Positions 1 to 64,000 of a stretch of DNA of 64,000 bases are shown one piece after another. Made by a program: the position numbers and the translations under genes. Where the stretch lies: the IMG/VR virus record IMGVR_UViG_3300037308_000350, positions 6,895 to 70,894 of that record; one strand, written 5' to 3'. Under the pieces are notes generated by a model. The model ran no database searches. It was given only the letters and a program-made list of their open reading frames with translations, and was not told the origin of the DNA. Position 1 is the first letter of the stretch. Each line of letters starts with the position of its first letter. This DNA comes from a virus.

Positions 1-32
1 TAAATTTTGTAAATAATATTTTCGGAATAAAG

Positions 33-389
33 ATGTATGCTATTAATAATAGTTATATTATTATGGCTAAAGTTTCAAGAGATTTAAATATCGCTAAAAG
101 TTTAGTGGGAACTAAACAGTTTGATTTTATTAAAAATATTTTTACAAAAGGTTCTATATTAAACAAAGAAAAAAATAAATTTTTGGTTAAAGGGTTAAAG
201 GCTTTTGAAGCGAAAACAGTAATAAACGCTTCAGCTATTAAAGCGTTTAATTCAAAAGAAAATATTTATTTAAAAGGAATAAAAGAATACTCGCTTAACA
301 GTGAGTTACATATTATAGGTAAGAGAGGCATAACTCCAATTTTATTAGCTTTGGATATGATAGGCGAAGAAATTGATGAAGGAGAATAA
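33..389 (+). CDS. hypothetical protein upstream of head module (start may be ATG at 63)
   Basis: ORF track; ends in GGAG RBS of the next gene. Confidence 0.55.
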   Translation: MYAINNSYIIMAKVSRDLNIAKSLVGTKQFDFIKNIFTKGSILNKEKNKFLVKGLKAFEAKTVINASAIKAFNSKENIYLKGIKEYSLNSELHIIGKRGITPILLALDMIGEEIDEGE

Positions 390-390
390 A

Positions 391-1824
391 ATGAACGTAG
401 AAATTATAGGAAAAAGTTTGGCAGAGTATACTTTAAACAGTAAAACTTCTTTTTTAGAAGGAAAAGACAATAATGAGCTTGAGGATTTAGCAAAGAAAAA
501 AGGGATACAGATTCCTAACAGGGATTTATCTTTTTTCAAAACTATATATGCAGAGGTAAATGTTCCTAATAGGAATAAAATGGTTCTTCCTTTAGAGAAA
601 GTAAAGAAAGGACTTCCCTCATTAATAGGTAAACAAATAAATTTTGACCACAAAGGAACTCATTTTATTTGTGGCTTTATCTTAGATGCTAAACTTGAAG
701 ATAAATTTATTATTGTTTATGGCTGTCTTTTTAAGAGTTCTTTTAAAGATGATTTTGAGACAGTCAAAGAAAAATTTGAAGGTGGAGATTTATTTGTTTC
801 TTTTGAAATTAGCGCTTATGATGAAAAGGGAGAATTAGTTTTAACGGAGGAAGAAGGAAATTACATTATTAATAAAATCAACTTTTGTGGGTGTGGTCTA
901 CTTTTAAAATCTAAACCTGCTTGCGCAAAAGCGAAGGTTTTGGATTTGTTGGCTTCTGAAAAGATAATTAAGGAAGCTGAAGAGATAATCAAAGTGGTCT
1001 TTGATGAAGACTTATCTCCTGATGTGGTTTACGCTGAACTATATATGAACGAAGAGGAGGAAAAAATTAAAATGGCTGATGAAAAGGTAATAAATCAAGA
1101 AGAAGTTAAAGCTGAGGAAAAAAAGGAAGAAACTCAGGCTATTGAAGAGCCTAAAGTGGAAGCAAAAGCTAAGTGCTCCGAGTGCGGAGAGGAACTTGCC
1201 GAAGGTGAAAAAGACCTTTGCGCCAAATGCAAAAAGAAAAAGGAAGAAGAAAAAGAGAAAGTAAAAGCTGAAGAGCCTAAAGCAGAAGAGAAGAAAGAAG
1301 AAGTTCAGGCTACCGAAGCTCCTAAAGTTGAAGAGAAAAAAGAAGAACCCAAAGCCGAAGAAGTAAAGGCTGAGGAAAAGAAAGAAGAGCCCAAGGTTGA
1401 GGCTCAGACAGTTGTTATTACTACAGAAGAGTCAGTTAAAAAGGTTGATACCATAGAAGATGGTAAAGAAACCGTTGAAACTAAAGGTGAAGTAGTAAGA
1501 ACAGTTGAATCTGAAACAGGAAAATCAACCGAGACTCAGAAAATAGATACCGTTGTAACTTATACTTTTGAACAGTATCAGGCGCTTGAAGCCGAAAAGA
1601 ATAGCGTAAAAGCTGAACTGGAAACAGTAAAAGCCGAAAATGCTAAGATAAAGGAAGAACTTGAAACACTTAAAGCTTCTCAGGTAAAAACTGCCGAAGT
1701 CAAGCCTGAAGAGAAAAAAGCCGATTTAGTGGCTACCGTAAAAGGTAAAGAAAATACTGAAGCAAAGCCTTCAGATGCAGTTAATCATTATGCTAACGAG
1801 ATATGGAAACAAGAAAGAAAATAA
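391..1824 (+). CDS. prohead protease/scaffold fusion (N-terminal protease-like domain, CxxC-CxxC ribbon, Lys/Glu-rich coiled coil)
   Basis: Directly upstream of capsid gene; INFDH, GFILDA, VSFEI, FCGCGLL segments typical of phage prohead proteases; KE-rich C-half; GGAG RBS favours ATG 391 over 373. Confidence 0.7.
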   Translation: MNVEIIGKSLAEYTLNSKTSFLEGKDNNELEDLAKKKGIQIPNRDLSFFKTIYAEVNVPNRNKMVLPLEKVKKGLPSLIGKQINFDHKGTHFICGFILDAKLEDKFIIVYGCLFKSSFKDDFETVKEKFEGGDLFVSFEISAYDEKGELVLTEEEGNYIINKINFCGCGLLLKSKPACAKAKVLDLLASEKIIKEAEEIIKVVFDEDLSPDVVYAELYMNEEEEKIKMADEKVINQEEVKAEEKKEETQAIEEPKVEAKAKCSECGEELAEGEKDLCAKCKKKKEEEKEKVKAEEPKAEEKKEEVQATEAPKVEEKKEEPKAEEVKAEEKKEEPKVEAQTVVITTEESVKKVDTIEDGKETVETKGEVVRTVESETGKSTETQKIDTVVTYTFEQYQALEAEKNSVKAELETVKAENAKIKEELETLKASQVKTAEVKPEEKKADLVATVKGKENTEAKPSDAVNHYANEIWKQERK

Positions 1825-1846
1825 GCTTAAAATAGATAAAAGCTTA

Positions 1847-1873
1847 CTCACTCTAACTAAAGATATGAGTGAG
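1847..1873 (+). promoter_or_regulatory. inverted repeat CTCACTC..GAGTGAG between scaffold and capsid genes
   Basis: 7-bp stem, 13-nt loop read from sequence. Confidence 0.4.
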
Positions 1874-1905
1874 GAGATAGTCCAAAACTAATGGAGGAAA
1901 CAAAA

Positions 1906-2916: not shown

Positions 2917-2930
2917 CCTTTAGTAATACA

Positions 2931-2964: not shown

Positions 2965-2981
2965 AAAAACAAGGACTAAAA

Positions 2982-8029: not shown

Positions 8030-8387
8030 TAGTGTAAATGCTTTTGAATACTTAAGGGAATTAGCCCACTCTGATTACTATCAGACTCTTTTTGTAGCGT
8101 CTAAAGAGCATAATGGTTTTAGACTCTTTAAAAATGATTTTGATTTTAGTCAGATTCAAGTAGCATTTTTTAACTGGTTATACTTTTATTATAACTTGCA
8201 AAGTGATATTTCTTCTGGGTTGGTATCGGAGTTAGTAAATAAAAATAGTATATTTGCAGATGCTTATTCTTATTATAAATATAAAAGTAAAGGTAAACAA
8301 AAGAAAGAAAAAGATAATAAAATAAAAAATAATGAGTTAAAGATAGTTTTTGGTAAGAAAGGTTGCCCTGTGGACAGAGGAAAATAA
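8022..8387 (+). CDS. second tail assembly chaperone-like protein
   Basis: Overlaps previous ORF by 8 nt; immediately precedes tape measure. Confidence 0.5.
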   Translation: MINSVNAFEYLRELAHSDYYQTLFVASKEHNGFRLFKNDFDFSQIQVAFFNWLYFYYNLQSDISSGLVSELVNKNSIFADAYSYYKYKSKGKQKKEKDNKIKNNELKIVFGKKGCPVDRGK

Positions 8388-8388
8388 A

Positions 8389-11300
8389 ATGGATGAACAG
8401 ACTAATGCCTACATATTTAGGTATAAAATGGAGCAGGAGGGAGCTCAACAGGTAGTTACTGAGCTTAAAAAGCTTAATCAAACTACTGAAGAGGTCTCTA
8501 ACCGCTTAAAAGGTCTTGGAAAGGCTCAAGGCGAAACTAAGACAGCTACAGATAAATCTATAATGTCTTTATCTGATTTTACTAAGGCTATGCGAAGAGC
8601 TGTTATAGTTGCTCCTGTCTGGTATGTTATGCGTAGCGCTATGATGGCATTTTTTGGAGCTCTACAAGAGGGAATGACTTATATGATAGAATGGGAATAT
8701 CAAATGGCTCAAATTAGAGTTGTCAGTAATTCATCCCTTAGCGAAATACAGGCTCTTTCTACAGGATTAATGGAATTAGCAAAAAATTTAGGTGTATCTT
8801 ATAAAGATTTAGGAGAAGGAGCTAAACTTTGGGCTCAACAGGGTAGAGCAATTGGCGAAATAGTTCCTTTAATGGAATCAACAATAAAATTATCAATGCT
8901 TTCTGGGCGTAGTATTACTGAATCTGTAGAGGATTTAACCGCAGTAATGAAAGCTTTTGGAATAGAAGCCTCAAATACTATGAAAATAGTAGATACTCTT
9001 GAGAATGTTGAGTTAAAACACGCCATAACTGTTCAAACATTATCAGGCGCTTTAAGAAATTCTGCGTCAATAGCAGAACAGATGGGAATTAGTTTTGAAA
9101 AGTTAACTGGTATTATAACAGCTACGCACGTTGTTACTCGTTCTTCTGGAGAAAAAGTAGGAAATGCTTGGAAAACTATTTTTTCAAGAATGGCTACTTC
9201 AGGAACAGAAGCAATTAGCAAAATGGCAGATATTCCAGTTTTTTTAGATGAAGCAGGGAAAGAATCAAAAAATCAGACTTTAAATTTTAGAAATCTTGGG
9301 GATATTCTTACCGAGTTAGCCCTTAAATGGGATACTTTAACAAAAGCTGAACAAAATAATTTAGCCGATAAAATAGCTGGCAAAAGACAAATAAACGAAT
9401 TCTTAGCTTTTATGGGTAATTATAAAGAATCTTTAAAAGCAGAAGCAGATGCTTTATTTAGTGTAGGAAAAGCAAATCAGGCTGTTAGTATTTTACAAGG
9501 CACTTTAAAAATAAGAACAGAAGCTTTAAAAAATAGTTGGGTTAGTTTTGTAGGAACAGTAGCAAATACAGATGTCTATAAAGATGCTGTTAGTGGTTTT
9601 TCTATAATGTTAGATTATTTTTCAAATAGGATTGATAAGGCTGGAGCTAAATATAAAGAGAGTATGAAGGAAATAAATAAAACAATTAGTGATGCGCAAG
9701 CGGATTTATCTAAAGTAGAAGGTGTTCAAACTTTAACTGAAAATTTAAAGAATTTTAATGAAATTTTAAATAGAACTCAATCAGAAGAAGCTCAAAGGAT
9801 GTCTGCTTATATGGCAGAAGTATATAGACAATCTTTAGCAATAGCAGGAATAAAAATATCTCCTGATGTAAAGAACACCGTAGAATTATATGATGAATTA
9901 TCTAAAATGCTTCCTGAAATGTATCAAAGGCAAATTAAATCTCTTCAACAGGTAAGAGAAGCTAATTTAAAGAGCACTATAGAATCAAGTTTAACCAATT
10001 TTGAAAAAGAATTACGAAGAACAAAGAAAGCTATTCCAGCAACTTTATCTACTGAATTAAAACTTGGAGACCTTGGATTAGCTGGAGCTGATAAACTTAT
10101 TGAAAGAACAATGGATAAACTTCGTTCTGGAATTGCTTTAACAGAAGAAGAATGGACAAATCTAAAAAGAGCTTTTTCTACAGACCAAGGATTGTTTGCC
10201 ATTAAAGAGCATTTAGATATATCAAGTGTAGTAAAATTATACGAAGTTTTAATTAAAGATATGGGAGAATTAGAAAAATTTAGAGAAGAAGGAACAAAAG
10301 ATGTTGAAGCTCAACTAAAGGCTGAGAATGAAAGAAAAAAAGCCCAGAACGCTATAGTTTCTGGAGCAATAAGTGAAGATACAGTAAAAGAAAAAATATT
10401 AGAAATTGAACTTGCTGGTGAATTAGCAGGTAAATCAAGGAAAAAAATATTGGAAGAAATCCTTGATTTACTAAACAAAACAAAAATAATTGAAACAGAA
10501 ACTTCAGATACTATTGATGATAGGTATCAAAAAGAACTTTCTAAGTTAAAAGCCAAACAAAAAGAAGAGCTGTTAGATGCTCAACAGGAATTAGATTTAC
10601 AAAAATTAAGTAGATTAGGATACTCCAATCTTCAAATAGAGATTCAAAGACTTGCTTATATAAAACAAAGAGCTGAAGTAAGTGGAGATGAATTAGAAGT
10701 TCAGAAACAAATATATAAAATTCAAGGTATGATTAATGATGAGATGAATGAATTTGCTAAAACATTACAAGGGTCAGTAAAAGATGCTTTTTCAGAAATA
10801 TTATCTGGAGAAGGAGATGTTACATCTTTCTTTTCAAAGATAGCTGATACTTGGAAATCAACTTTAATAGATACCGCTTCAGAATCTTTATCAAATAGTT
10901 TTATGCAAATAACTGGAGCAGGAGAACCTTTTGGTAAAATTTTTGGTGGAATAAAGAATTTTGGAAGCCCTATTTCAAAAGCTTTTTATGAAGGTTCTAC
11001 AATGACTTATAATGCTATTGTTAGTGCTTTTTCTCAGGGAGCAACATCAGTTCAGGCTGGAGCTATACCCACACTGAGGGGTGGCGCTGGCGGTGGAATG
11101 ATGGGAGGTTTAGGAATGTTTGGAGGTTTATTTGGTGGCGGTGGTAGAATGGTATCTACTGGCTATCAAAATGTAGGTGGACAAGGTTTTGTTCAAGCAT
11201 ATTCTCCAAATTTTATTGGAGGTAAAGCTTCTGGTGGTGGAGGATTTCAAATACCATTTTTATCTGGATTAGGAAAATCCGCAGGAAGTTTCTGGGGAGG

Positions 11301-11757
11301 TCAATCCTATGGTCAAGTAGGTATGTCTGGAGTTATGGGAGCAATTGGTGGTGGAGCAATGTCAGGGAATTGGTTAGGAGCAGGGTTATCTGGTGTTGGA
11401 GCAATGCTTATGGGAACTCCTTTAGCTCCATTAGGTATTGCTACGATGATAGGTTCTTTATTTACTGGTAAAAAGAAGAAATCTACATCAGAAAGTTCTT
11501 GGCAAGCCCAGCAAGCACCAGAGACTCTACCTTTAAATGTTATTACTGGAGGAGCACCATTACCAACAGCTTATCCGTTGCCTTCTTCCAGATATTTTGC
11601 AGGACAGAAACCAACAAATCAACAAAGTAATAATATTACTATTAATATAGAAAAGATTGAAGGAACAAATGAGGATGTCGCCAGTCAAATAGCGGATAAA
11701 GTTTCAGAAATATATTCAAGACAATTAGGAAGAGGATTGAATATCCTTTATCCATAA
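8389..11757 (+). CDS. tail tape measure protein (TP901-type core)
   Basis: Long helical protein with typical LGEGAKLWAQQG, LTAVMKAFG, GEKVGNAWKTIF segments and Gly-rich C-terminus; GAGG RBS favours ATG 8389. Confidence 0.9.
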   Translation: MDEQTNAYIFRYKMEQEGAQQVVTELKKLNQTTEEVSNRLKGLGKAQGETKTATDKSIMSLSDFTKAMRRAVIVAPVWYVMRSAMMAFFGALQEGMTYMIEWEYQMAQIRVVSNSSLSEIQALSTGLMELAKNLGVSYKDLGEGAKLWAQQGRAIGEIVPLMESTIKLSMLSGRSITESVEDLTAVMKAFGIEASNTMKIVDTLENVELKHAITVQTLSGALRNSASIAEQMGISFEKLTGIITATHVVTRSSGEKVGNAWKTIFSRMATSGTEAISKMADIPVFLDEAGKESKNQTLNFRNLGDILTELALKWDTLTKAEQNNLADKIAGKRQINEFLAFMGNYKESLKAEADALFSVGKANQAVSILQGTLKIRTEALKNSWVSFVGTVANTDVYKDAVSGFSIMLDYFSNRIDKAGAKYKESMKEINKTISDAQADLSKVEGVQTLTENLKNFNEILNRTQSEEAQRMSAYMAEVYRQSLAIAGIKISPDVKNTVELYDELSKMLPEMYQRQIKSLQQVREANLKSTIESSLTNFEKELRRTKKAIPATLSTELKLGDLGLAGADKLIERTMDKLRSGIALTEEEWTNLKRAFSTDQGLFAIKEHLDISSVVKLYEVLIKDMGELEKFREEGTKDVEAQLKAENERKKAQNAIVSGAISEDTVKEKILEIELAGELAGKSRKKILEEILDLLNKTKIIETETSDTIDDRYQKELSKLKAKQKEELLDAQQELDLQKLSRLGYSNLQIEIQRLAYIKQRAEVSGDELEVQKQIYKIQGMINDEMNEFAKTLQGSVKDAFSEILSGEGDVTSFFSKIADTWKSTLIDTASESLSNSFMQITGAGEPFGKIFGGIKNFGSPISKAFYEGSTMTYNAIVSAFSQGATSVQAGAIPTLRGGAGGGMMGGLGMFGGLFGGGGRMVSTGYQNVGGQGFVQAYSPNFIGGKASGGGGFQIPFLSGLGKSAGSFWGGQSYGQVGMSGVMGAIGGGAMSGNWLGAGLSGVGAMLMGTPLAPLGIATMIGSLFTGKKKKSTSESSWQAQQAPETLPLNVITGGAPLPTAYPLPSSRYFAGQKPTNQQSNNITINIEKIEGTNEDVASQIADKVSEIYSRQLGRGLNILYP

Positions 11758-13107: not shown

Positions 13108-16100
13108 ATGGCAATTTACACTGTAGGCGCAGGTATAGGCTTACCAAATACCGCAAGGCGTTGCATCGTAAAAACAAGTTTAGGGAAGCTTGTTCTCTTC
13201 GCTTTTACTGCGTCAAGCACAATAAAATATAAAACTTCCTCAGATGGCGGTCAAACTTGGGATTCAAGTTGGACAAGCGTTGTAAGTGGTTATTATGATT
13301 TTGATGTTGTTATTGACGCTTCCAACAATATCCATATGCTCGCCAATACTGATGATCAAAGACCTCATTATATTAAATTAACTTATAGTGGAGGTTCTTG
13401 GACTGTTGGTGGAGCTGTTGAATTAGCTTCTGGAATTTCTTGCTATTCCACTAATATAATGATTTTAGATAATGGAAATATAGTAGCTGGGTGGCGTTCT
13501 GGTATTACAGCCTATTGGAGAACATCAACCGATGGAGGAGCAACTTGGGGTGGAACAAGCGCCCAGAGCGTAGGAACTGTTTGGCAATCAGAATGGTTGG
13601 CTTATGGTAATACGGTATCCTACTTTATTTTAACAGGAAATTTACTCTGTTGGGGAATAGGTGGAAGCGGAGTAACAATTGACACAGGATTACCTACAGG
13701 GTTTAATTGTAATCATATATGCGCAGTAAGAAAAGACAATAATAATATTTGGATAGCGTATAGAACTTCCTCTGGTATAGCGGTAAAAAAGTGGAATGGT
13801 TCTGCTTGGGATGTAAGTAGAACGATGCTATCTGACCACGCAAATGATACAGCTCCAAGTATTCAAATTTTTAACGGACAACCAGTAGTTTCTTGGGTAG
13901 ATTATGATGGAACAAATTATGATATTGCCTATAGAAAATTTGATGGAACTAATTGGGAAACTCAGGTAGATGTAACTTCTGGAGCAGAAGTAGATGGCAC
14001 TCCCAATATGATATTTTCTGAGGCAACTTATTTACTTTTAGGATATTATGCTGGAGGAAATATTAAGTTAGAGGTAGAAAGAGAAGCATTTGATTTAACC
14101 GATGCTTTTAATATTACAGATGAAGTTTTAACCAAATTAGAATTAGATGAACCAGCGTCTTTATCTGATGAAATAGAAGAATTTTTTGTTCCTTCCGTAA
14201 GAAACGTAGAAGCTTTTCAGAGAACTTCTGATGGAAAAGTTGAAATAGATTATGAGGTATTTTTTAACCATTTTTTAACAGGAGAAGACCAAGTAGATAT
14301 TCAACTTCAATATTGGAATGGAACTACTTGGCAGAATTGCACAACTACGGTTGGAGAAGGCTCAAAAACATTAATTGCTGGAGAATGGGTAGTTGGTAGC
14401 GCTGTTTGGGATGCTAAGGCTGATATAAATGGAACATATTATTCAGCAACTAAAATCAAGGTTTTAGCAGGATACTCCAGTCATTATGGGTTTAATGATA
14501 GCCCTGAGTTTGCTTTAGATGTTAAAAATCCAGTAGTAACCTTACTTAATCCTTCGGATGGTTCTTCTCAGTATCTTTTACCCTTTGTTTTTGAAACAGA
14601 TATTGTAGAGAATTCATCTTATCATATTAAATTTCAATTCTCAGCATCAGAAAGTCCTTTTGTTCCAATTATTGAACACGAAGACGATGACATAGAGACT
14701 TGGGATTACACTGAAAATTTAAGACCATTAATGTTTGGACAATGGTTTTGGAGAATTATAGTAGAAGATATTTATCATAACGAAACAACTTCTGCTATTA
14801 GTGATTTTACTTTGTTAGAGAGCGCTACTCAAATAAGAATAGATAGTTTACAAAAATATTATAATGGTTCTGGTATGGTTAAAGTTTTATTTAGTTTAAG
14901 AGATTTAAATAACGAAAAGGTTTCTATAAGATTTGATTATACCACAGATGAAGGATTAACTTATCATCCTGTAAAAGTAGTGTCAGTTTCTTCAGGAACT
15001 ATTTCCCCAGAAGAAGATTATATAACAAATCTTTCGGCTACGCCAGTTTGGATTCAGTATAATGCTGAACTTCAATATGCAACAGACACAGAAATGCAGT
15101 TGATTACAGATGAGTTAATGAAAAAGAATTTAAGATTAAAAGCTCAGGTTATAGTTACCAGAGATGACATAAATTATGATATATCAGACGTAGTTTCTAA
15201 AGTGGATATTGCCAGAAGTAAACAATTTGGTTCAAGCCAAGCAAATATTGGAGTCATTGATAAAGATTTTAAATATAATCCAATTAATGAATCCAGTGAA
15301 GTAAATTTAGTTGGTAGCGCTGTGAATCCTTTAATTTATTTTGGGAACAAGATAAGAGTTATTCATCATTTTTTAACTAATACTGGAGTTAAGTTATTTA
15401 CTAAATTTACAGGCATAATAAAGAATGTAGAAATCTCAAAATCTGGAGCATCAAACGGAATTCAAATAACAGCAATGGACAACCTTCAGAAATTAATAAA
15501 TTATATGCCGAATAATTTAGAGTATAAGACCACAAAGCGGGGAATAGTAAATGAAATACTAAGAACTTTTGATGGAGTAACTTATTTTTCTGAACATACA
15601 AGCTGGGCTGATTATCCAGCGCCAATTATATATTTAAATGGAACGAAAATAGAGCCAGACAAATATATTATTGATTTTGTAAGAGGTCAAGTAATATATA
15701 AAGGAAATGCTTTATCCAAACTTACTACAGATACAAAATTATGCACTAACCCTTCTACGGATAGAAAAACGTGGGTTACTGGCATAGAATTTAATGATTC
15801 CATTTTACCAAAGGTTTATTATGTTTATGAAAAGTATGAAAGGTTTAATTGTAACGATTATACAGGATGGATTTTTCAATGGACAGGATACACTGAAGAA
15901 CTTCACGAATTTGAAGACTACTATATTGATTACACTAATGGCAATGTTAATTTATATTTAGCATTACCAGCAGATAACCCTTCAAGCAATGAAGGAAATA
16001 TAAATAATCAGAGTATAATGATTGTTTATAGACAAACAACTACTTTAAAGGCAACTTATTCATATGAAGTGGAGGGAAGTAACGAAGTAGAGGATATAAT

Positions 16101-31084: not shown

Positions 31085-31223
31085 AGGACAATTTTGTATA
31101 CCTTTTTAAATTCATCTAAGGACATAAATCCATCATTTATTGATTTAATAATACAATCCGCTACTGTTTTAACTGTTCCACGAATATGATTTTTCTGTCT
31201 ATTTCTATGGCTCATAGTTCTCC

Positions 31224-33759: not shown

Positions 33760-35063
33760 TATACATCCTCCAAACCTTCTTTGATATAGACGATATGCCC
33801 TGTGAAATCCACATCACAGTAACGAGTAATTATTTCTGCTATCTTATTGGGAGACATCATTTTAGATGAATCTTGATTCGGATTAATATGCTGTTGAAGC
33901 TTTGTATTTACTTTAGCTGGACAAATAACATTTACTTTTATTCCGTGATTTTTAAAGAGAGTAGGAGAATAGGCTTCTACGAAAGAATTTAAGGCGCTCT
34001 TTGAAGCAGAGTAAAGGCTAATGCCAGTTCTTCCATAAGAAGCTGAAGCAGAACCCACAATAACAATATTTCCATTATCATTTAACATAAAAGGCGCTAA
34101 AGTGAGAAAATAAATTATACTCCTAAAGTTTGTATTCATAATATTACAATAATTCTTCAAGATTCCTTCATCATCCCTTGCGTATGTTCCACCACAAAGA
34201 ATAATGCAATCGTATTTATGTTTTGGACAAACAATTGGAGGATTATAATTATTATATCCAAGCTTTTCTAAATTAAGAGAAGTGCGTGAAGGAGCAAATA
34301 CCGTTGCTTTTCCGTTTTCTAAAAGGATTTTTATCTCACTACCTATTCCACCCGAAGCGCCTGTTAATAGAATTCTTTTTCCTATTAGTTTTGGAGTTCT
34401 TTTGACCGCTTCTTTATACTTGATTAATTGTTCCGCATTAAATAAATCCTTTGGGTAGGTAATCTTTATATTGGGATTGATTAAATCAATTGTTTTGGTG
34501 TTAGTAATCAAGTCCGATATTGCGGTAACTCGCCTATCTGATTTAAAATACTTATTGCACAGAAGTTTATAATTGAACCCTTCTGGAGTTTGGCATAGTC
34601 TATATTCTTCTCTATTAAGTGGCTTCTTAACTATGCCCTTTGAATCAATTTGAACTAAAGCGTCTGTTATGGTTTGGGTAGTGCACACTGATTTATGACC
34701 ATTTTTTAACTCTTTTAATATAAGCTTAATAGTCTCAGGAGTCAAAAAAGGTCTCACAGAATCAAAGAATAAAACATACTTGGTATCAGAAGGGCACTCT
34801 TTTAGTCCATTGATAACCGATTGTTTTCTATTAATACCACCTTTAACCATCTTGAATTGACCTTTAACTTTCTCTCTTACTTGTTTCATTATTTTAGGAT
34901 TAGTAACAATAATAATTAAATCTAATTCTTTGGAGGCAATAATGGAGTCTAAAACATACTGAATAACAGGCTTACCATTTAAACTCATTAATTGCTTAGA
35001 TATTTTACTTCCAAATCTTTTTCCTTCACCACCAGCTAATATAATACCAACTGCTTTATTCAT
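33759..35063 (-). CDS. bifunctional IspD/TarI cytidylyltransferase plus SDR reductase (Bcs1-like CDP-alditol synthase)
   Basis: LAGGEGKRFG, GG.NRKQSV..GL, DSVRPF, QTPEGF, NIKITYPKDL; then TGASGGIG and YSASK. Confidence 0.88.
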   Translation of the reverse strand: MNKAVGIILAGGEGKRFGSKISKQLMSLNGKPVIQYVLDSIIASKELDLIIIVTNPKIMKQVREKVKGQFKMVKGGINRKQSVINGLKECPSDTKYVLFFDSVRPFLTPETIKLILKELKNGHKSVCTTQTITDALVQIDSKGIVKKPLNREEYRLCQTPEGFNYKLLCNKYFKSDRRVTAISDLITNTKTIDLINPNIKITYPKDLFNAEQLIKYKEAVKRTPKLIGKRILLTGASGGIGSEIKILLENGKATVFAPSRTSLNLEKLGYNNYNPPIVCPKHKYDCIILCGGTYARDDEGILKNYCNIMNTNFRSIIYFLTLAPFMLNDNGNIVIVGSASASYGRTGISLYSASKSALNSFVEAYSPTLFKNHGIKVNVICPAKVNTKLQQHINPNQDSSKMMSPNKIAEIITRYCDVDFTGHIVYIKEGLEDV

Positions 35064-36612: not shown

Positions 36613-36743
36613 TTGAGTCCTCCATTTGAAAAAGGATATAATACACCTTTTTAATATTCTTCCAATTAAACCTTTTGCATAGAATACCCACTATAAATAA
36701 TGGTATTCCTATATAACCAGCTAAGAGCCCTATAAGTATTGCT

Positions 36744-38906: not shown

Positions 38907-39381
38907 TTAGTTTTATAATTTTAGCGAAACCTTCACTCTTTGTTGGTTTTTCATACATAGCATCAAACTTCTTCCATACAGATTCCCATAGTTTTCTATC
39001 AGGTTGTCCGTGAGGGTCTTTTAGTCTTCTATTAACAGATTTTTTCATTGAATATCTTGGCATCTCTATTACTGTAATTGAATAATTCCATTTTCTCGCC
39101 AAGAAGGAATATCTGGCTCGCATTGATTTAGTTATTCCAACTTCGTCTACTAATATATTTTGTCCTAAGAACATAAAATTATCAATTATATTTAATTCTG
39201 AATCCCAGATAGCTTTTTCTATTTTAGGCTCAAATCTATACTTTCCAGCTCCTATCATATATCTTAAGGAGTCTCTGGAGATAATGACGTGAGAGAAACC
39301 TTTAGAGATAAGCTTCTTACAGAAGGTAGATTTACCTGAGCCTATGTTTCCTATAAGTAAAACAAGTTCTGGTTTATTCAT
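38866..39381 (-). CDS. P-loop kinase, polynucleotide-kinase-like (AAA_33)
   Basis: LIGNIGSGKST, ISRDSLR, ILVD. Confidence 0.85.
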   Translation of the reverse strand: MNKPELVLLIGNIGSGKSTFCKKLISKGFSHVIISRDSLRYMIGAGKYRFEPKIEKAIWDSELNIIDNFMFLGQNILVDEVGITKSMRARYSFLARKWNYSITVIEMPRYSMKKSVNRRLKDPHGQPDRKLWESVWKKFDAMYEKPTKSEGFAKIIKLNDKQKSFPDLRSK

Positions 39382-48534: not shown

Positions 48535-50287
48535 TTGATTCCTCCCATAAGAGTTCTTTATTTTTCTTTTCAGCCCAATTAGAGCATACTTTTATTTCTG
48601 CGCAAATATTAATGTCGTCTAATGGGTAATCTACCTTATTTTTAATCTCTTTAAGCAATTCATCATTTAAAAGAGCTTCTTCTACTTCAATAACAATTTC
48701 ATCGTGAACCTGATTGATTATATGAATCTTATTTTCTTTTACCAGAGGATATAATTTAATAAGAGCGTTCTTAGCTATATCAGCTTCGCTACCAACTATT
48801 ACTGAATTAAAGGCTTCTCTATCAAGAAAAGCTTTGTAGCCATCTTTGACATTAGGTAGCCATTCTAAGTGTCTTTTACGATTGAATAAGGTAATGACAT
48901 AATTATTTTTATGAAAACATTCCAAGACCTTTTTCTTAAAATAAAAAACATTCTTATAGCTTTCCTTAAAGTTATTATATATTCTTTCTGCTTCAGGCAA
49001 TAATTGTTCCTCTGTTAATTCTGGTCTATAGGGTCTTAATTCTCTAACTAAACCCTTTGTAGAGAGCCCATATATAATTCCAAAGTTAAGTATCTTCGCA
49101 AAATCTCTTTCTGATTCGTTGATGTCTTCTTTTCCAAAAGTTAATTTGGCTGTAAGCTTATGAATATCCCCATTCTCAGAGAAAGCCTTTAAAAATACTT
49201 TTTCCTGCGCCATATGAGCAAGTATTCTTAAGTGCATCTGAGAATAATCAATAACTAACAACTTATGCCCTTCTGGAGCAATATACATTTCACGGATGCG
49301 GTCTTCTTTCTTTGTAATCTGTTGCGTATTTGGTCTTTCTGCGGATAGTCTTCCTACCCTTGTTCCTGTAATATTAAAATGAGGATGAATCCTGCTGTCT
49401 TCTCCAACTCTTTCTTTAACTGGAGTAATAAAAGTATTTAAGGTTTTAACTTTCTCTCTATAATCAAGTATTCTAATTGCCAACTCAACTCCCTGATTCT
49501 TAAGTGTATGCAAAACCTCTGTGTCTGTAGAATTCTTGTTTCCTTTTTTAGTCTTTTTCACAGGAGTTAATCCCATTACTTCAAAAAACATTTTTGATAA
49601 TTGAGCAGGAGAATTAATATCAATTTTATTAGGGCAAACCTCAAGCGCTTTTTCTTCAAGCCTAATTACTTCCTCTTTATATTCTTTGTCTAAAACCTCA
49701 AGCTTATTTTTATCAACATACATTCCGTATCTTTGGGCTGATAAAAGAACAGGTATGAGATTAAATTCAAACTTTAATTTATCGTGAGGAAGCTTTTCTT
49801 TATAAAAATCAAATAAGCGCTCTGTAACAGCTAACTGGCGTTTACAGTGCTGGGCTAACTCAATAATATCTGGGTTTTTAAAGTTCTTATACTCGGTTAT
49901 ATCTACCTTAAATTTATTTTTTGCTAAATCAATAAGTTTATGAGACTGATTTTCATCCTCTACCCAAGAAGCTATTTGAGTGCAAAAGATATTTTCAGTA
50001 AACTTAAAGCCAGCTATATTTAAAAGGTTTAAGTCAAACATTGCATTGTGAATAATTATATAGGAACAATTTACTAACATATCTTCAAATACTTCCCTAT
50101 CTAATAACTCATAAGGGATTAAATAATCCTGCTTTTCATATCTAATTCCTATTAAAAGAATTTGGCAATTATCTTCTAACCCTGTTGTTTCAAGGTCAAA
50201 AGTAAAAGGCGTATTTGCTTTAAAGTCAATCTGGTCAAAACTGTGAAGAACGCCTTCCTGTAATCCTTTTAATATTATTTCGTTCAT
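48524..50287 (-). CDS. polA: family A DNA polymerase (3'-5' exo domain plus polymerase), atypical residues
   Basis: DLETTG, HNAMFD, TRVGRLSAERPNTQQI, DYSQMHLR, RDFAKILNFGIIYG, QVHDEI. Confidence 0.95.
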   Translation of the reverse strand: MNEIILKGLQEGVLHSFDQIDFKANTPFTFDLETTGLEDNCQILLIGIRYEKQDYLIPYELLDREVFEDMLVNCSYIIIHNAMFDLNLLNIAGFKFTENIFCTQIASWVEDENQSHKLIDLAKNKFKVDITEYKNFKNPDIIELAQHCKRQLAVTERLFDFYKEKLPHDKLKFEFNLIPVLLSAQRYGMYVDKNKLEVLDKEYKEEVIRLEEKALEVCPNKIDINSPAQLSKMFFEVMGLTPVKKTKKGNKNSTDTEVLHTLKNQGVELAIRILDYREKVKTLNTFITPVKERVGEDSRIHPHFNITGTRVGRLSAERPNTQQITKKEDRIREMYIAPEGHKLLVIDYSQMHLRILAHMAQEKVFLKAFSENGDIHKLTAKLTFGKEDINESERDFAKILNFGIIYGLSTKGLVRELRPYRPELTEEQLLPEAERIYNNFKESYKNVFYFKKKVLECFHKNNYVITLFNRKRHLEWLPNVKDGYKAFLDREAFNSVIVGSEADIAKNALIKLYPLVKENKIHIINQVHDEIVIEVEEALLNDELLKEIKNKVDYPLDDINICAEIKVCSNWAEKKNKELLWEESNEI

Positions 50288-51111: not shown

Positions 51112-52170
51112 TTAAAATATTTCGCTTTCTTTTGTTTTAACAAAGCCTGTATTAAAATAAAAAGGAATATGAAGGTCGCTAAGTTCTGGTTTACTGTTGC
51201 TTTTCTTTGTCTTTTCAATCTTTAATACGCAATCAAACCCTATTTTAATTTCATCAAACTTAGGTTTACCTTTTTCATCCTTTTCATCTAATTCTATCTT
51301 TGTAGTAGGAGCATCTGCGCCCTGACCTTTTCTCATATAAATAGTGAGCATAGACCAGTGCTTTACTGCGTGTCCACCTGTTAAGCCTTCCTTTGTAATA
51401 AAAGAGCCTATTCCCTCTGTTCTTACCTGACCTATTAAGATAACTCCAACCTTTCCTTGATATATAAATGGCGCTGTTCTGCGCAAGAATTTACCCATCT
51501 TACGAGCCAGAAGAGCCATTTCTGATTGCTTCATAGACCTTTCTTTTTCTGCTTTCCCTTCAAACTGTTCTTCTGAAGGAGACATTGCTTGAATTGAATC
51601 AATGATAATTAGGTCTACTGCTTTTTCTTTCGCCAATTTAATTACTATATCCATTGCTTGTTCGGCAGTTGTGCAATCCTCAATCAAGGCTAATTGCTCT
51701 GGGTCAACTCCGAAATCCTTCATTCTGCTGACATCTAAGGTATGTTCCAAATCAATATAGGCGCATACCTTTCCCTTTTTCTGGGCTTCAGCAATTTGCG
51801 TAATAGCTAAAGTCGTTTTACCTACACCTTCTCCACCGTAGAAGATTACAAAATTACCAACTACAGCTCCTCCTCCAGCAAATTCATCTAAAGGAGTTAC
51901 TCCAAAAGGTAAACTTTCTTTAGGAGGCTCTTCATTAGCAAATTTTACCATAGAAGGATTTTTAAATTCTTTATTTATTTCCTTCATAACCTTGAGAAGT
52001 TTTTCTTTCTTCTCATAAACTATTTCTTCTTTTGTTTCTCTCACTTCAGCCTTCTTTATTTTTTCTTCAGCTTCAGCGAGCTTTTTTTCAGGTTCTTTAC
52101 AGCCAATATCCTTGAAAACATTACCAGAACCTTTGGTTATTTTATTTTTTGAGCCTTTAGTTCTACCCAT
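51112..52170 (-). CDS. recA: RecA/UvsX recombinase with N-terminal extension
   Basis: GGEGVGKTT, YIDLEH, LIIIDSI, ILIGQVR, GGHAVKH. Confidence 0.93.
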   Translation of the reverse strand: MGRTKGSKNKITKGSGNVFKDIGCKEPEKKLAEAEEKIKKAEVRETKEEIVYEKKEKLLKVMKEINKEFKNPSMVKFANEEPPKESLPFGVTPLDEFAGGGAVVGNFVIFYGGEGVGKTTLAITQIAEAQKKGKVCAYIDLEHTLDVSRMKDFGVDPEQLALIEDCTTAEQAMDIVIKLAKEKAVDLIIIDSIQAMSPSEEQFEGKAEKERSMKQSEMALLARKMGKFLRRTAPFIYQGKVGVILIGQVRTEGIGSFITKEGLTGGHAVKHWSMLTIYMRKGQGADAPTTKIELDEKDEKGKPKFDEIKIGFDCVLKIEKTKKSNSKPELSDLHIPFYFNTGFVKTKESEIF

Positions 52171-57673: not shown

Positions 57674-57961
57674 TTATACATCCTCCATTTTTACAATAGC
57701 TTTTCGGTTAGACAATACAAAACGCTTGAAATTAAACATTACATTTCTAACCTTGTAGTCTTCAACTTTAAAATCAGCGTTGTATTGCTTAAGCCTTGCA
57801 AAGTTGTCTTCCAATTCATCTTGATAACTAAAGATATACTTTAGTTTTAACTTCTTAGGTGGATTTTCAATATCAAAAGGCTTGTGGTCTTTACGATAAA
57901 TTACGAAAGCTTTAACAACAGACTTAAAATCCTCATCATTAATAAACAGTTTAATTCCCAT
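57674..57961 (-). CDS. hypothetical protein
   Basis: Coupled ORF. Confidence 0.55.
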   Translation of the reverse strand: MGIKLFINDEDFKSVVKAFVIYRKDHKPFDIENPPKKLKLKYIFSYQDELEDNFARLKQYNADFKVEDYKVRNVMFNFKRFVLSNRKAIVKMEDV

Positions 57962-58575: not shown

Positions 58576-59592
58576 TTACTTTCTCTCTAAGAATTTACTT
58601 ATTGTTTTAAGCCTTACAATACCATCTGCTACAAATATAGGCATTTCTGGTCTTATTATCTCCAATGGGTTAGGGTCTACACTTCGTAAGTGCGAAATTA
58701 TACCCACTAATTGTCCTTTGGTATTATAGACTCCACCGCCAGAAGAGCCAAAGAAACAGCTATCCTGAATATACATTACTGTTCCTTGATAACCCATCAA
58801 TTGCCCTTTGCTTAACAAATCTTCTACTCCAGCAGGATTACCACATACCCACAAGTCATCTAATTTTGTAGGTTCTGTTGTGGCTATTTCAGTTGCGTAT
58901 CTGGGAGTCATATCAGGGTCTTCTGGTTGCAGTAATAGTAAATCTATTTCGTGGTCTACTTTTAATACTTTAAGCTTGCAAATCCTTTGTCCATTTTCAC
59001 TCAAATAAACAGCATCTTGTTCTGTCGTTATTAAGTGTCCAGCAGAGAGAATATAATAAGCATCATTGTATTTTATAGTTACTCCGCTTCCCATTGTTCC
59101 ATCAGTATCGTTTTCAATTAATACTGTATATTGAAGAATATTGTATTTTACTCTATTTGTAATAAACTCCTCCAAAGCTTTTACTATTTGAGCTTTGTCT
59201 AAGGTAAGTTTACTAATCTCTTCAAACTCTTTTCTTAGTTTTTCATCTGCTATATTATTTTTTATATCTGATTCCTTAAATTTTTCATTAACATATTCTT
59301 TCATTTTAGTTACATAATCAACTATAGCAGACATAACTTCTTCTTGCGTTGCTTCGTTTTTTACAAAGTTACTAAAGGCTTCTGTTAAGGCTTTATCATA
59401 AACAATACTCTGCGCTATTTGGCGATACATAGATTGCTGATAATTGGTTATCATATCCATTTGCGCTGTCAAAACTGACTGAGTATTGTATATTCTTTTG
59501 ACTACAGAAACATTGAACATAGTTACCCAAACTATTGCTATAGTCAAAACCAGCCTTAAAGCGATATTCAGAAACCCTATTAATCTCTTCAT
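58576..59592 (-). CDS. membrane-anchored trypsin-like serine protease
   Basis: N-terminal TM and coiled coil; GSGV, LSAGH, DLLLL, GSSGGG. Confidence 0.88.
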   Translation of the reverse strand: MKRLIGFLNIALRLVLTIAIVWVTMFNVSVVKRIYNTQSVLTAQMDMITNYQQSMYRQIAQSIVYDKALTEAFSNFVKNEATQEEVMSAIVDYVTKMKEYVNEKFKESDIKNNIADEKLRKEFEEISKLTLDKAQIVKALEEFITNRVKYNILQYTVLIENDTDGTMGSGVTIKYNDAYYILSAGHLITTEQDAVYLSENGQRICKLKVLKVDHEIDLLLLQPEDPDMTPRYATEIATTEPTKLDDLWVCGNPAGVEDLLSKGQLMGYQGTVMYIQDSCFFGSSGGGVYNTKGQLVGIISHLRSVDPNPLEIIRPEMPIFVADGIVRLKTISKFLERK

Positions 59593-61579: not shown

Positions 61580-61587
61580 ATATTCTC

Positions 61588-61902: not shown

Positions 61903-62294
61903 TATTGCCCTAACCTTTCATATTGTTTTAACAACTGTTCCATTATATCCTGCCTTACCTGACCATTCTTTATAAAATCTCTCCAAAACTGCCTTCTGGT
62001 ATGTCTTGGGAAACCTATTTCTTCCAACCTTGAATCTAAAAACCCCAAAAATTTAATTGCTTTATAAAAATCCCTATATATGGATTGAAGTTTATCTCTT
62101 TTAGCAACTTCTTTTCTATATTCAGGGCTAATAGCATAGTTAACCCTGTCTTTATACCAAGCAAAGAATTTTCTCCACTTACCCACGATTACTCCTTTAG
62201 CCATCAAAACCTTTTTTCTTGGAGATTTCTCTGCAATGATAGTTTTGATTAAGTTATGATAGAATATGATTTCTTTTTTAATTTTTTGTAGCAT
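61902..62294 (-). CDS. basic hypothetical protein
   Basis: ORF with GGAGG RBS. Confidence 0.55.
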   Translation of the reverse strand: MLQKIKKEIIFYHNLIKTIIAEKSPRKKVLMAKGVIVGKWRKFFAWYKDRVNYAISPEYRKEVAKRDKLQSIYRDFYKAIKFLGFLDSRLEEIGFPRHTRRQFWRDFIKNGQVRQDIMEQLLKQYERLGQ

Positions 62295-62304
62295 CTTTTC
62301 CTCC

Positions 62305-63057
62305 TTAAAAATACCAACCTAAGTGAATTAGTATTCTGTCATCACCTTTGTATCCTTTACCATATTTTGCGCCTACAAAAGAATTAGGCATTGCTTTTAT
62401 TTTCTTTCCTAAATCATAATCTACGCCTACATAAGCGCCAGCGTTTGTTAATACTGCGCTTGCCCTCCAATCATAATATTTAAAAAAGGAAAGCCCTGCG
62501 CCAGCTTCTTGTTTTATTTTATCTCCTACGCCTACTCCTACTACTCCAATTAATTTTACATCTACTCCAATAGGCTTAAGAGCTTTTTCTAATTCAGGAA
62601 TATCTGTTACTTTTATTACCTTTAAAACTCTGCCCTGCTTATCTATTACCTTAGCTGTTCCATCCTTTTCAATCTTTAGGAAGTGTTCATTTAAACATAT
62701 TGTTGCTTCTTTTCCTTGAAGATTAAAATGGACAGGTTTTTCTTTTAATCCTTTCCAATATCCATACCCAAAAATTACTCCAATAACCAAAGTGTATATA
62801 GCTAATTTTCTGAAATTAAATATTGATTGAATATCTTTAGCCCAACCCACAGGAGAAGCAACATTTGTCATTCCTTCTACAAACTTTTTAATGCTAAAAG
62901 ATTCTCCTTTGGAAGATTCTTCTGGGATAACTCCTGTAATCTTTTCAGAAATTTTAGCCTTTACTTTCTCGGTTACTCGCTTCTTTAAATAATTAAAAAA
63001 TAATCCTCCTATGATTCCTACAGAGATAAAAATAATTGCTTCCATAATAGTATTCAT
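62305..63057 (-). CDS. two-TM membrane protein with C-terminal amphipathic beta strands ending in Phe
   Basis: TM1 aa 5-24, TM2 near aa 85-101; ends RILIHLGWYF. Confidence 0.6.
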   Translation of the reverse strand: MNTIMEAIIFISVGIIGGLFFNYLKKRVTEKVKAKISEKITGVIPEESSKGESFSIKKFVEGMTNVASPVGWAKDIQSIFNFRKLAIYTLVIGVIFGYGYWKGLKEKPVHFNLQGKEATICLNEHFLKIEKDGTAKVIDKQGRVLKVIKVTDIPELEKALKPIGVDVKLIGVVGVGVGDKIKQEAGAGLSFFKYYDWRASAVLTNAGAYVGVDYDLGKKIKAMPNSFVGAKYGKGYKGDDRILIHLGWYF

Positions 63058-63216
63058 TTAGTCTCCTACGCTATCGCTTCTACATCTTAAACATAAATAC
63101 ATATCCAAGCAAAATAATTTACTATCACATACTCGGATAGGCTTCAATCTCCAAAAATATCTTCCGCACACATCACATTGTTTAAAGCCAAGTAGTTTTA
63201 AGAAGAATATTTTCAT
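63058..63216 (-). CDS. 52-aa Cys-rich peptide not in ORF track
   Basis: Hand-translated MKIFFLKLLGFKQCDVCG..LCLRC. Confidence 0.5.
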   Translation of the reverse strand: MKIFFLKLLGFKQCDVCGRYFWRLKPIRVCDSKLFCLDMYLCLRCRSDSVGD

Positions 63217-63340
63217 TTAAAAACCTTTCTATACAAAATAACCAAAGGGTAGACTAAAATTAATAGAATAGCATAAAATAAAATCCAAAGAGCATTGATT
63301 ATAATATCCCAGATACACTTCGCTTTTTCAAGAAAGCCCA

Positions 63341-64000
63341 TTATTTATTCTCGTCTTTGTCTGCCAAATCTACTAAGTAAATAAATGTTGAAACTCTTTT
63401 TTCGTTTACTCCCCAAATCAATTGAATAGGTTCGCTATGTTTAGCCATATTATCCGATAAGCTATCCCCTCCAACTGTAGAGCCTCCTCTAAAAACTCTA
63501 ACATTATCACAATCAAAAATACCTGCGTGATGATAATGTCCATATACTATGCCTTCTACTTCGTGCCTTCTCGCCCACTCATTTATTTTAACTCTTCCAG
63601 CAGGAGAATCTACTTGTTCTGGCGCAATATGCCTGATTAAATATCCGTGTCCTCTTACTATAAATTTCAAATATTCGGTTTCTGTATATTTTACTTCCAG
63701 CTTAGGATTCTTTAAAACAAATTTCGCCCAAAAATCAAGAATCATATAAATCATTAAATCCCAATTTGAAGCCACATCAGTATCTTTTCCTGTCCTTCCG
63801 TGATTACCTCTTACGCCATAGAATTTAATAGAAAGCCCTCTGCTTAATAAAGCAACTATGAGCTTGGTAATTACATCAACAACAAGCATTACTTGAGCTG
63901 GAGGCGCTATTTCCTGTTCAAAAGCCTGTGTTAAATAAATACCTTCTCCATTAGCCAAATCACCTGTTGAAATAATAACTACATCAGTAATGGGAACACC
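63341..64000 (-). CDS. metallophosphoesterase, 5' end outside window
   Basis: Frame open to window edge (ISTGDLANGE); GNHGR, GHYH motifs. Confidence 0.8.
   Translation of the reverse strand, partial: GVPITDVVIISTGDLANGEGIYLTQAFEQEIAPPAQVMLVVDVITKLIVALLSRGLSIKFYGVRGNHGRTGKDTDVASNWDLMIYMILDFWAKFVLKNPKLEVKYTETEYLKFIVRGHGYLIRHIAPEQVDSPAGRVKINEWARRHEVEGIVYGHYHHAGIFDCDNVRVFRGGSTVGGDSLSDNMAKHSEPIQLIWGVNEKRVSTFIYLVDLADKDENK

What the first reader, a model, noticed from the sequence alone, without database searches (positions are those of the whole stretch)
1..64000. Ala-Ala, Gly-Pro and Pro-Gly dipeptides appear absent from the proteome
Seen: reading the credible translations I found no AA, GP or PG, even in the Ala/Gly-rich tape measure. 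These codon pairs unavoidably spell GCNGC, GGNCC and CCNGG. Family motifs that normally contain them are rewritten: RecA YGPES becomes YGGEG, SDR YSASKAA becomes YSASKSA, kinase GPPGSGK becomes GNIGSGK, trypsin PGNSGG becomes FGSSGG. Known: these 5-mers are type II sites (Fnu4HI, Sau96I, ScrFI classes). Inference: host restriction pressure has reshaped protein sequence, not just synonymous codons, which fingerprints the host methylome.
Basis: partly seen in the sequence, partly recalled or inferred. Interest (0 to 1): 0.8.

Follow-up and report, generated by a model that had tools for sequence, protein, structure and literature searches.

The report
Phage proteome reshaped by restriction-site avoidance
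An uncultured freshwater tailed phage has removed so many short restriction-enzyme target words from its DNA that four amino-acid pairs (Ala-Ala, Gly-Pro, Pro-Gly, Trp-Pro) can no longer be encoded and are absent from all its proteins; this is an extreme case of a known anti-restriction strategy, not a new mechanism.

Summary
In the window and in the whole 73,555-base virus contig, GCNGC, GGNCC and CCNGG occur 0 times (about 58-80 expected each). AA, GP and PG occur 0 times in 23,830 residues (60, 42 and 42 expected).

More words are missing. CATG, CCGG, CGCG, CTAG, GGCC, GTAC and TCGA are absent, and GATC occurs once. GTSAC, GGNNCC, several 6-mers and several asymmetric words are also gone.

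From this list I predicted a fourth impossible dipeptide, WP (TGG-CCN contains GGCC). It is also absent (10 expected). These four are exactly the dipeptides that cannot be encoded.

Synonymous-codon shuffles that keep every protein restore 4-170 copies of each word, so selection acts on the DNA.

Near-universal motifs are rewritten:
- RecA Walker A: GPESSGKT becomes GGEGVGKT.
- PolA: TAAD becomes SEAD.
- SDR: YAAAKA and PG become YSASKS and PA.
- Pnk: GCPGSGKS becomes GNIGSGKS.

Sister phages (46-48% PolA identity) show partial and different bans. Staphylococcus phage K and Anabaena phage A-4L also lack GP and WP, so the effect is implicit in known phages. This scan has also noted similar cases on other DNA.

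The host is unknown, so the "host methylome fingerprint" claim is untested.

The parts
1..64000 (.). Whole window (= contig bases 6895-70894). Zero copies of GCNGC, GGNCC, CCNGG, CGNCG, CATG, CCGG, CGCG, CTAG, GGCC, GTAC, TCGA, GTSAC, GATATC, ATGCAT, CAGCTG, CTGCAG, AACGTT, TACGTA, GGGAC, ACGGC, ACTGGG and GAATGC; GGNNCC occurs once. As a result no AA, GP, PG or WP can occur in any reading frame.
13354..13357 (+). The only GATC in the contig (GAT-CAA, Asp-Gln, inside the 2261-aa gene). It could be avoided by a synonymous change, so it is probably a recent mutation.
   Evidence: the same letters are in Logan's own assembly, probably of the same sample
8350..11757 (+). Tape measure protein, 8.7% Ala and 9.4% Gly. 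It expects 8.6 AA and has none.
51826..51840 (-). RecA Walker A reads YGGEG where E. coli RecA has YGPES. The same protein has IAEAQ for IAAAQ, IQAMSP for VAALTP and LLARK for LAARM.
   Evidence: sister phages have GN at this place
48779..48790 (-). Family A DNA polymerase reads SEAD where Taq has TAAD. 100 of 119 homologues have AA here, and the whole clade has EA.
33993..34013 (-). SDR catalytic Tyr-Lys motif reads YSASKSA, against YAAAKAG or YAASKAA in solved reductases.
33915..33920 (-). The conserved Pro-Gly of the SDR, downstream of the catalytic Lys, reads Pro-Ala (ICPAKVNT against VAPGAIET).
39331..39351 (-). P-loop of the polynucleotide-kinase-like protein reads GNIGSGK where T4 Pnk has GCPGSGK.
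58735..58752 (-). Active-site serine motif of the trypsin-like protease reads FGSSGG. The aligned DegQ has RGNSGG, so replacement of a PG is not shown here.

Best explanation
This is a tailed dsDNA phage of an unidentified freshwater host. Its lineage has been selected for complete loss of the recognition words of many type II restriction enzymes. These are mostly G+C-containing 4-base palindromes, 5-base NN-N-NN palindromes, some 6-base palindromes and a few asymmetric words. With zero sites the phage DNA cannot be cut by those enzymes, whether or not it is methylated. Most words can be removed by synonymous recoding. Four codon pairs cannot: GCN-GCN always spells GCNGC, GGN-CCN spells GGNCC, CCN-GGN spells CCNGG and TGG-CCN spells GGCC. 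Ala-Ala, Gly-Pro, Pro-Gly and Trp-Pro have therefore been replaced by other residues everywhere, even in near-universal enzyme motifs. Shown here: the absences, their statistics, their independence of reading frame, the motif rewriting and the pattern in relatives. Inferred: that restriction endonucleases of the host or hosts are the selective agent.
For: 1. About 21 independent palindromic words with expectation of at least 8 are at 10% of expectation or less, most at exactly 0. Like-composition controls (AGCT, GANTC, ACNGT, GTWAC, all-AT palindromes) are normal.
2. 200 synonymous-codon shuffles that keep each protein and its codon usage give 21-168 copies for the main 4- and 5-base words (e.g. 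GCNGC 21, GGNCC 22, CATG 91, GATC 168) and never reach the observed count for them; the rarest strand-specific words (about 4 expected) sometimes also reach 0. The constraint is therefore on DNA in every frame and on both strands.
3. The banned word list predicts exactly four un-encodable dipeptides, and these are the only four with count 0. WP was predicted before it was counted. Thirteen predicted un-encodable tripeptides are also absent (0 vs 7.7 expected).
4. All main banned words equal recognition sequences of type II prototypes. This step rests on established knowledge, from memory of REBASE: NlaIII, HpaII, FnuDII, MaeI, MboI, HaeIII, RsaI, TaqI, Fnu4HI, Sau96I, ScrFI, Tsp45I, NlaIV, EcoRV, NsiI, PvuII, PstI.
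5. Sister phages show overlapping but different bans. The complete 90-kb relative G001 has GATC 2/172, GGCC 13/133, GGWCC 0/61 and GCGC 2/21, but normal CATG, CTAG and GTAC. Its dipeptide loss matches: GP 0/44, WP 0/9, AA 28/71, PG 10/44. This fits lineage-specific host repertoires.
6. Cultured phages long reported to avoid host restriction sites (from memory: O'Flaherty 2004; Bancroft and Smith 1988) show the same side effect. Staphylococcus phage K has GATC 0/262, GGNCC 0/71, GP 0/49, WP 0/7 and AA 3/57. Anabaena phage A-4L has GATC 0/90, GGNCC 0/70, GP 0/36 and WP 0/8.
7. The sequence is natural. An independent Logan assembly carries it, and relatives come from other samples.
Against: No host, restriction enzyme or methylome is known, so the selective agent is inferred. 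More than 20 specificities is a very large number for one host and needs either a very R-M-rich host, a diverse host population or a broad host range. A few banned words (CGWCG, GGACG, CCTCG, GGGGC) match no enzyme I can name. GCGC is about 2-fold enriched, which restriction avoidance does not explain directly. The contig is incomplete, so methyltransferases or anti-restriction genes elsewhere in the genome are not excluded.
Confidence: 0.85

Rival explanations
1. The words are avoided because the phage itself makes nucleases that cut them, for example to degrade host DNA, so its own genome must be free of the sites.
For: The contig encodes several nuclease-like proteins: a LAGLIDADG endonuclease, a weak PD-(D/E)XK hit, an Mre11/SbcCD-like pair and a 5'-3' exonuclease. 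No methyltransferase was found.
Against: More than 20 distinct specificities would need more than 20 nucleases in a genome of about 90 kb. None of the detected proteins resembles a type II restriction enzyme family. Sister phages with the same gene set ban different words.
Confidence: 0.04
2. Another host defence that reads short palindromic or G+C-rich words, rather than classical type II restriction enzymes, drives the loss.
For: Some banned words have no prototype enzyme that I can name. The breadth is unusual compared with five reference phages.
Against: The main words coincide one for one with classical type II sites. The same words are lost in phage K and A-4L, phages of hosts from which enzymes cutting these words were described (from memory: Sau3AI and Sau96I; AvaII, AvaIII).
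Confidence: 0.07
3. The dipeptides are avoided for protein-level or compositional reasons (low G+C, few Ala, Gly and Pro) or through mutational bias, and the DNA words are missing as a by-product.
For: G+C is 33% and Ala, Gly and Pro are moderately low at 5.0, 6.4 and 2.8%.
Against: Expectations already use the observed composition. Synonymous shuffles restore about 21 copies of each 5-mer outside the in-frame dipeptide position. Words without any dipeptide consequence (CATG, CTAG, GTAC, TCGA, GATC) are also at 0 or 1. Deamination cannot explain the loss of words without a CpG or a methylatable C context. 58 other viral loci have a median observed/expected ratio of 0.95 for these dipeptides.
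Confidence: 0.02
4. The sequence is an assembly artefact or a designed, synthetic sequence.
For: A total absence of so many cloning sites looks like design.
Against: The contig comes from a freshwater metagenome. A separate Logan assembly, probably of the same sample, gives the same sequence with no differences, so that alone is not independent. Syntenic relatives at 46-48% identity from three other samples share part of the pattern. Unrelated IMG/VR phages show it too.
Confidence: 0.02

Closest known systems
Restriction-site (palindrome) avoidance in virulent dsDNA phages, as surveyed by Rusinov et al. 2018 (PMC6286503)
   Same: Type II recognition words are depleted genome-wide relative to composition. 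Selection acts at the DNA level. The sets differ between lineages.
   Different: The depletion here is total and covers about 21 independent palindromic words plus asymmetric ones. The survey text mentions neither amino acids nor codons, and I found no paper on dipeptide loss.
Staphylococcus phage K (Kayvirus), known from memory for lacking GATC (Sau3AI) and GGNCC (Sau96I) sites
   Same: In its first 100 kb: GATC 0/262, GGNCC 0/71, GGCC 0/62, GCNGC 3/41. Consequently GP is 0/49, WP 0/7 and AA 3/57. G+C is similar at 31%.
   Different: Phage K keeps CCNGG (58/69; PG 34/49), CATG, CTAG, GTAC and CCGG. It has 7 depleted words against 21 here. There is no sequence relationship.
Cyanophages of Anabaena, Microcystis and Planktothrix (A-4L, Mic1, PaV-LD); counter-selection of host endonuclease sites in Anabaena/Nostoc phages (Bancroft and Smith 1988, from memory)
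   Same: Freshwater phages with broad palindrome loss: 12-15 depleted words each, including GATC, GGCC, GGNCC, ATGCAT, CAGCTG, CTGCAG and TTCGAA. A-4L lacks GP (0/36) and WP (0/8).
   Different: They keep most 4-base palindromes and keep AA and PG (A-4L AA 90/74, PG 33/36). Mic1 and PaV-LD carry methyltransferase genes. They are not related in sequence to this phage.

Membership tests
Restriction-site avoidance (anti-restriction by loss of target words) | Recognition words are significantly under-represented against composition-based and Markov expectations. | tested here: met
   Observed 0 against 15-278 expected for each main word under order-0, order-1 and maximal-order models.
Restriction-site avoidance (anti-restriction by loss of target words) | Depletion acts on DNA irrespective of reading frame and strand, and is not explained by protein sequence or codon usage. 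| tested here: met
   The synonymous-codon shuffle restores 4-170 copies of each word. Both orientations of the asymmetric words are absent.
Restriction-site avoidance (anti-restriction by loss of target words) | Control words of like length and composition are not depleted. | tested here: met
   AGCT 384/360, GANTC 234/240, ACNGT 131/124, GTWAC 119/88 and the all-AT palindromes are near expectation.
Restriction-site avoidance (anti-restriction by loss of target words) | The avoided words match R-M specificities present in the host. | not testable with these tools
   The host was not identified. There are no cultured relatives, no relative in species genomes, no tRNA and no named homologues.
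Restriction-site avoidance (anti-restriction by loss of target words) | The pattern varies among related phages, as expected from different host repertoires. | tested here: met
   G001, L004 and L006 share the loss of GATC, GGCC and GGNCC but keep CATG, CTAG and GTAC. They ban GCGC, which the focal phage enriches.
Anti-restriction by DNA modification or self-methylation | The phage encodes DNA methyltransferases or base-modification enzymes. | tested here: inconclusive
   There is no methyltransferase in about 70 proteins scanned. Only sub-threshold hits appear to nucleoside deoxyribosyltransferase and dATP/dGTP diphosphohydrolase families. The contig is incomplete.

The most novel reading that the evidence does not exclude
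Restriction pressure can act as a proteome-wide constraint strong enough to delete four dipeptides and overwrite near-universal catalytic motifs (RecA Walker A Gly-Pro, PolA Ala-Ala, SDR Pro-Gly). This dipeptide signature recurs in unrelated uncultured low-G+C phages (L011, L016) and, unremarked, in phage K and A-4L. It would be a general, so far undescribed, protein-level footprint of R-M systems that could be read from protein data alone and used to group phages by host defence repertoire.
Probability: 0.4. Interest if true: 0.6.

Novelty: new member of a known kind. Interest (0 to 1): 0.45.

Why it matters
This case shows in a clean, quantitative way that bacterial restriction systems can shape phage protein sequences and not only silent sites. 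Four dipeptides are forbidden, and enzymes have had to find working replacements for motifs usually regarded as invariant. Such replacements are natural experiments on motif tolerance, for example a RecA with GG in place of GP in the P-loop. The banned-word list also gives a testable prediction of the restriction repertoire that this phage meets, which could help assign a host once methylomes from the same lake are available. Conceptually it remains a corollary of a long-known counter-defence.

Tried and rejected
Host identification failed by every route tried:
- tblastn of PolA, terminase and primase-helicase against 50,697 phage records gave at most about 30% identity or no hit.
- Scans of species genomes with the IspD-SDR fusion and with a clade PolA alignment found nothing.
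- There are no tRNA genes.
- Atlas look-ups of the MFS transporter and the IspD-SDR fusion gave mixed phyla.
- Homologues of the peptide deformylase carry no organism names.

Matching the banned-word fingerprint to reference phages from Staphylococcus, Anabaena, Microcystis, Planktothrix and Flavobacterium did not discriminate, because the focal phage bans nearly every word that any of them bans. A cyanobacterial host (freshwater source, peptide deformylase, BT1 transporter, cyanophage-like breadth of avoidance) is only a weak guess.

Residual sites in relative G001 are scattered and do not cluster in an island.

Substitutions inferred from orthologue pairs were few, because the relatives already lack most of these dipeptides.

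Literature searches for dipeptide loss caused by site avoidance returned nothing relevant.

Full report
**What the sequence is.** The window is bases 6895-70894 of a 73,555-base IMG/VR virus record. It is 32.9% G+C and 97% coding by a greedy ORF call of 90 genes. It encodes:
- a tape measure protein and baseplate or fibre proteins;
- a family A DNA polymerase, RecA, a PrimPol-helicase, a 5'-3' exonuclease, an RNA ligase and a trypsin-like protease;
- SSB, peptide deformylase, an M16 peptidase, an HD protein, a Pnk-like kinase and a LAGLIDADG endonuclease;
- an ATP-dependent ligase and a sigma-like protein.

It is therefore a tailed dsDNA phage. The source is a freshwater metagenome. Logan's own assembly, probably of the same sample, carries the same sequence without differences.

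**Check of the observation.**
- GCNGC, GGNCC and CCNGG occur 0 times in the window (first-order Markov expectations 58, 72 and 68) and 0 times in the whole contig.
- In 23,830 residues AA, GP and PG occur 0 times, against 60, 42 and 42 expected from composition.
- Shuffling residues within each protein 1000 times gives 41-87, 22-60 and 22-60, never 0.
- The words are absent on both strands, so no reading frame can contain these dipeptides and gene-calling errors cannot matter.
GTNAC is 102/113 but occurs only as GTWAC; GTSAC is 0.

**The ban is much wider.**
- Of the 16 four-base palindromes, CATG, CCGG, CGCG, CTAG, GGCC, GTAC and TCGA are at 0 and GATC at 1, with expectations of 15-278.
- Also at 0: CGNCG, GTSAC, GATATC, ATGCAT, CAGCTG, CTGCAG, AACGTT and TACGTA.
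- GGNNCC occurs once against 47-80 expected.
- The asymmetric words GGGAC, ACGGC, ACTGGG and GAATGC are at 0 in both orientations, as are four words I cannot assign: GGACG, CCTCG, GGGGC and CGWCG.
- Retained: the all-AT palindromes and AGCT. ACGT and TGCA are only mildly low, and GCGC is enriched about 2-fold.
- The single GATC (window 13354, GAT-CAA) could be avoided by a synonymous change and is present in the Logan contig too.

**Is the selection on DNA or on protein?**
- I shuffled synonymous codons within each gene 200 times, keeping every protein and its codon usage.
- For the main 4- and 5-base words (GCNGC 21, GGNCC 22, CCNGG 21, CATG 91, CTAG 123, GTAC 124, TCGA 100, GATC 168) no shuffle reached the observed count. 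The rarest strand-specific words (about 4 expected) sometimes also reached 0.
- So even with the dipeptides already gone, about 20 out-of-frame or antisense copies of each 5-mer would be expected, and none exists. Selection is on the DNA words.
- I then derived from the banned-word list which dipeptides have no permitted codon pair. The answer is exactly AA (GCNGC), GP (GGNCC), PG (CCNGG) and WP (GGCC, through TGG-CCN).
- I had predicted WP before counting it. It is absent (0 vs 10 expected).
- These four are the only dipeptides with count 0. The next lowest ratio is 0.28.
- Combinations of banned words also forbid 13 tripeptides, such as MDH, MAP and WDQ. Together they expect 7.7 occurrences and have 0.
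- Codon-level traces fit too. No in-frame ATG is preceded by C (0 of 376). CTAG is absent, so none of the 7 TAG stops can follow a C.

**Rewritten motifs.** Alignments to solved structures show substitutions at conserved places.

| Protein | Reference sequence | This phage |
|---|---|---|
| RecA Walker A | E. coli YGPESSGKTT | YGGEGVGKTT |
| RecA, other sites | IAAAQ, VAALTP, LAARM | IAEAQ, IQAMSP, LLARK |
| PolA | Taq QGTAADLMK | VGSEADIAK |
| SDR Tyr-Lys motif | YAAAKAG / YAASKAA | YSASKSA |
| SDR Pro-Gly | VAPGAIET | ICPAKVNT |
| Pnk P-loop | T4 IGCPGSGKST | IGNIGSGKST |

- The sister phages have GN at the RecA Walker A place.
- At the PolA site, 100 of 119 homologues carry AA and all six clade members have EA.

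**Relatives.**
- Five metagenomic PolA proteins are 46-48% identical. Everything else is at most about 37% identical.
- Their contigs are syntenic.
- One relative, G001, is a complete 90,469-base genome with terminal repeats.
- G001 has lost GATC (2/172), GGCC (13/133), GGWCC (0/61), GCGC (2/21), ACGT (7/61), GTSAC (4/57) and GCSGC (3/9), and part of CCNGG (19/106).
- G001 keeps CATG, CTAG, GTAC, TGCA and GCWGC.
- Its proteome follows suit: GP 0/44, WP 0/9, PG 10/44 and AA 28/71.
- L004 and L006 behave similarly.
- The loss of GP and WP is therefore old in the clade. The focal lineage has extended the ban.
- GCGC is banned in the relatives but enriched in the focal phage. Such lineage-specific sets are what different host R-M repertoires would produce.
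- Residual sites in G001 are scattered, not clustered.

**Background and known phages.**
- Among 58 viral loci of at least 10 kb collected with a PolA profile, the median observed/expected ratio for the four dipeptides is 0.95.
- Two unrelated low-G+C phages show the same loss. L011 has all four at 0. L016 has AA 1/17, GP 0 and PG 0. Their fingerprints differ from the focal one; for example both also ban GANTC.
- The effect is also present, apparently unremarked, in classical phages.
- Staphylococcus phage K (first 100 kb) has GATC 0/262, GGNCC 0/71, GGCC 0/62 and GCNGC 3/41. Consequently GP is 0/49, WP 0/7 and AA 3/57.
- Anabaena phage A-4L has GATC 0/90, GGCC 0/58, GGNCC 0/70, and ATGCAT, TTCGAA, CYCGRG, CAGCTG and CTGCAG all at 0. 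Its GP is 0/36 and WP 0/8.
- Counting independent palindromic words at 10% of expectation or less, the focal phage has 21 of 86 testable. A-4L has 15, Mic1 14, PaV-LD 12, phage K 7 and Flavobacterium phage 11b 3.
- This phage is therefore the most extreme of those examined, but it is of the same kind.
- Earlier notes of this scan report comparable purged phages on other DNA (e1-3415497, e1-3293697). The eight missing tetranucleotides of this same window were also noted before (e1-5351564).

**Mechanism.**
- The best explanation is the classical one. Each site is a chance of being cut on entry, so lineages that lose all sites for an enzyme become immune to it regardless of methylation.
- All principal banned words are recognition sequences of type II prototypes. 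This step rests on established knowledge, recalled from REBASE, and was not tested here.
- The number of specificities (more than 20) implies a host very rich in R-M systems, a host population with a diverse pan-repertoire, or a broad host range.
- No methyltransferase or recognised anti-restriction protein was found in about 70 scanned proteins. This fits reliance on site loss, but the contig is incomplete.
- The rival explanations are self-avoidance of phage nucleases, an unknown word-reading defence, protein-level or mutational causes, and artefact. The evidence above makes each unlikely.

**Host.** Every route to a host failed, and fingerprint matching does not discriminate. A cyanobacterial host is a weak guess. 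The claim that the pattern fingerprints the host methylome therefore stays untested.

**Novelty.**
- Restriction-site avoidance is long known.
- The main survey (PMC6286503) does not mention amino acids or codons. My searches found no paper describing dipeptide loss as a consequence. These searches cover open-access text only.
- The proteome-level effect is a direct corollary of site avoidance, and I show it is already present in phage K and A-4L.
- I therefore class this as a new, extreme member of a known kind, of moderate interest.

Noticed in passing
whole window; e.g. GGC-GCT and AGC-GCT codon pairs: GCGC is enriched about 2-fold: 109 observed against 36 by first-order Markov and 54 by synonymous shuffle. 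Most copies are xGC-GCx codon pairs (Gly-Ala, Ser-Ala). The sister phages have almost no GCGC (0-2 copies). The cause is unknown.
   Followed up: partly
L011 (IMGVR_UViG_3300028677_000070) and L016 (IMGVR_UViG_3300045988_146986): Two phages related only distantly by PolA (28-29% identity) also lack AA, GP, PG and WP almost completely. Their banned-word sets differ; both also lack GANTC, and L011 lacks CTNAG.
   Followed up: partly
window 48524-50287 (-), PolA residues 347-354: PolA motif A reads DYSQMHLR, with His where family A polymerases usually have Glu (the steric gate). All eight residues are invariant in the six clade members.
   Followed up: partly
window 29887-35063 (-): Glycan or teichoic-acid-like cluster: an IspD-SDR fusion (the Atlas's nearest clusters include ones named D-ribitol-5-phosphate cytidylyltransferase), a large protein 43% identical to a relative's LicD + glycosyltransferase protein (Pfam families seen on the relative only), and an acyltransferase. 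Relatives carry split versions of the same genes.
   Followed up: partly
window 35428-38906 (-) and 43196-43675 (-): Unusual cargo for a phage: an M16 (insulinase-type) peptidase, a full-length BT1-family MFS transporter and a peptide deformylase.
   Followed up: partly
window 56844-58571 (-): Weak, sub-threshold Pfam hits to the dATP/dGTP diphosphohydrolase N-terminal domain and to two nucleoside deoxyribosyltransferase families. This may point to nucleotide-pool or base-modification chemistry, which would be a second anti-restriction layer.
   Followed up: no
G001 (IMGVR_UViG_3300033145_000767, 90,469 b): The complete sister genome has direct terminal repeats and bans GCSGC but not GCWGC, and GGWCC completely (0/61).
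   Followed up: partly
contig-wide: Stop codon use is 78 TAA, 7 TAG and 5 TGA. No in-frame ATG is preceded by C (0 of 376), a codon-choice trace of the CATG ban.
   Followed up: yes
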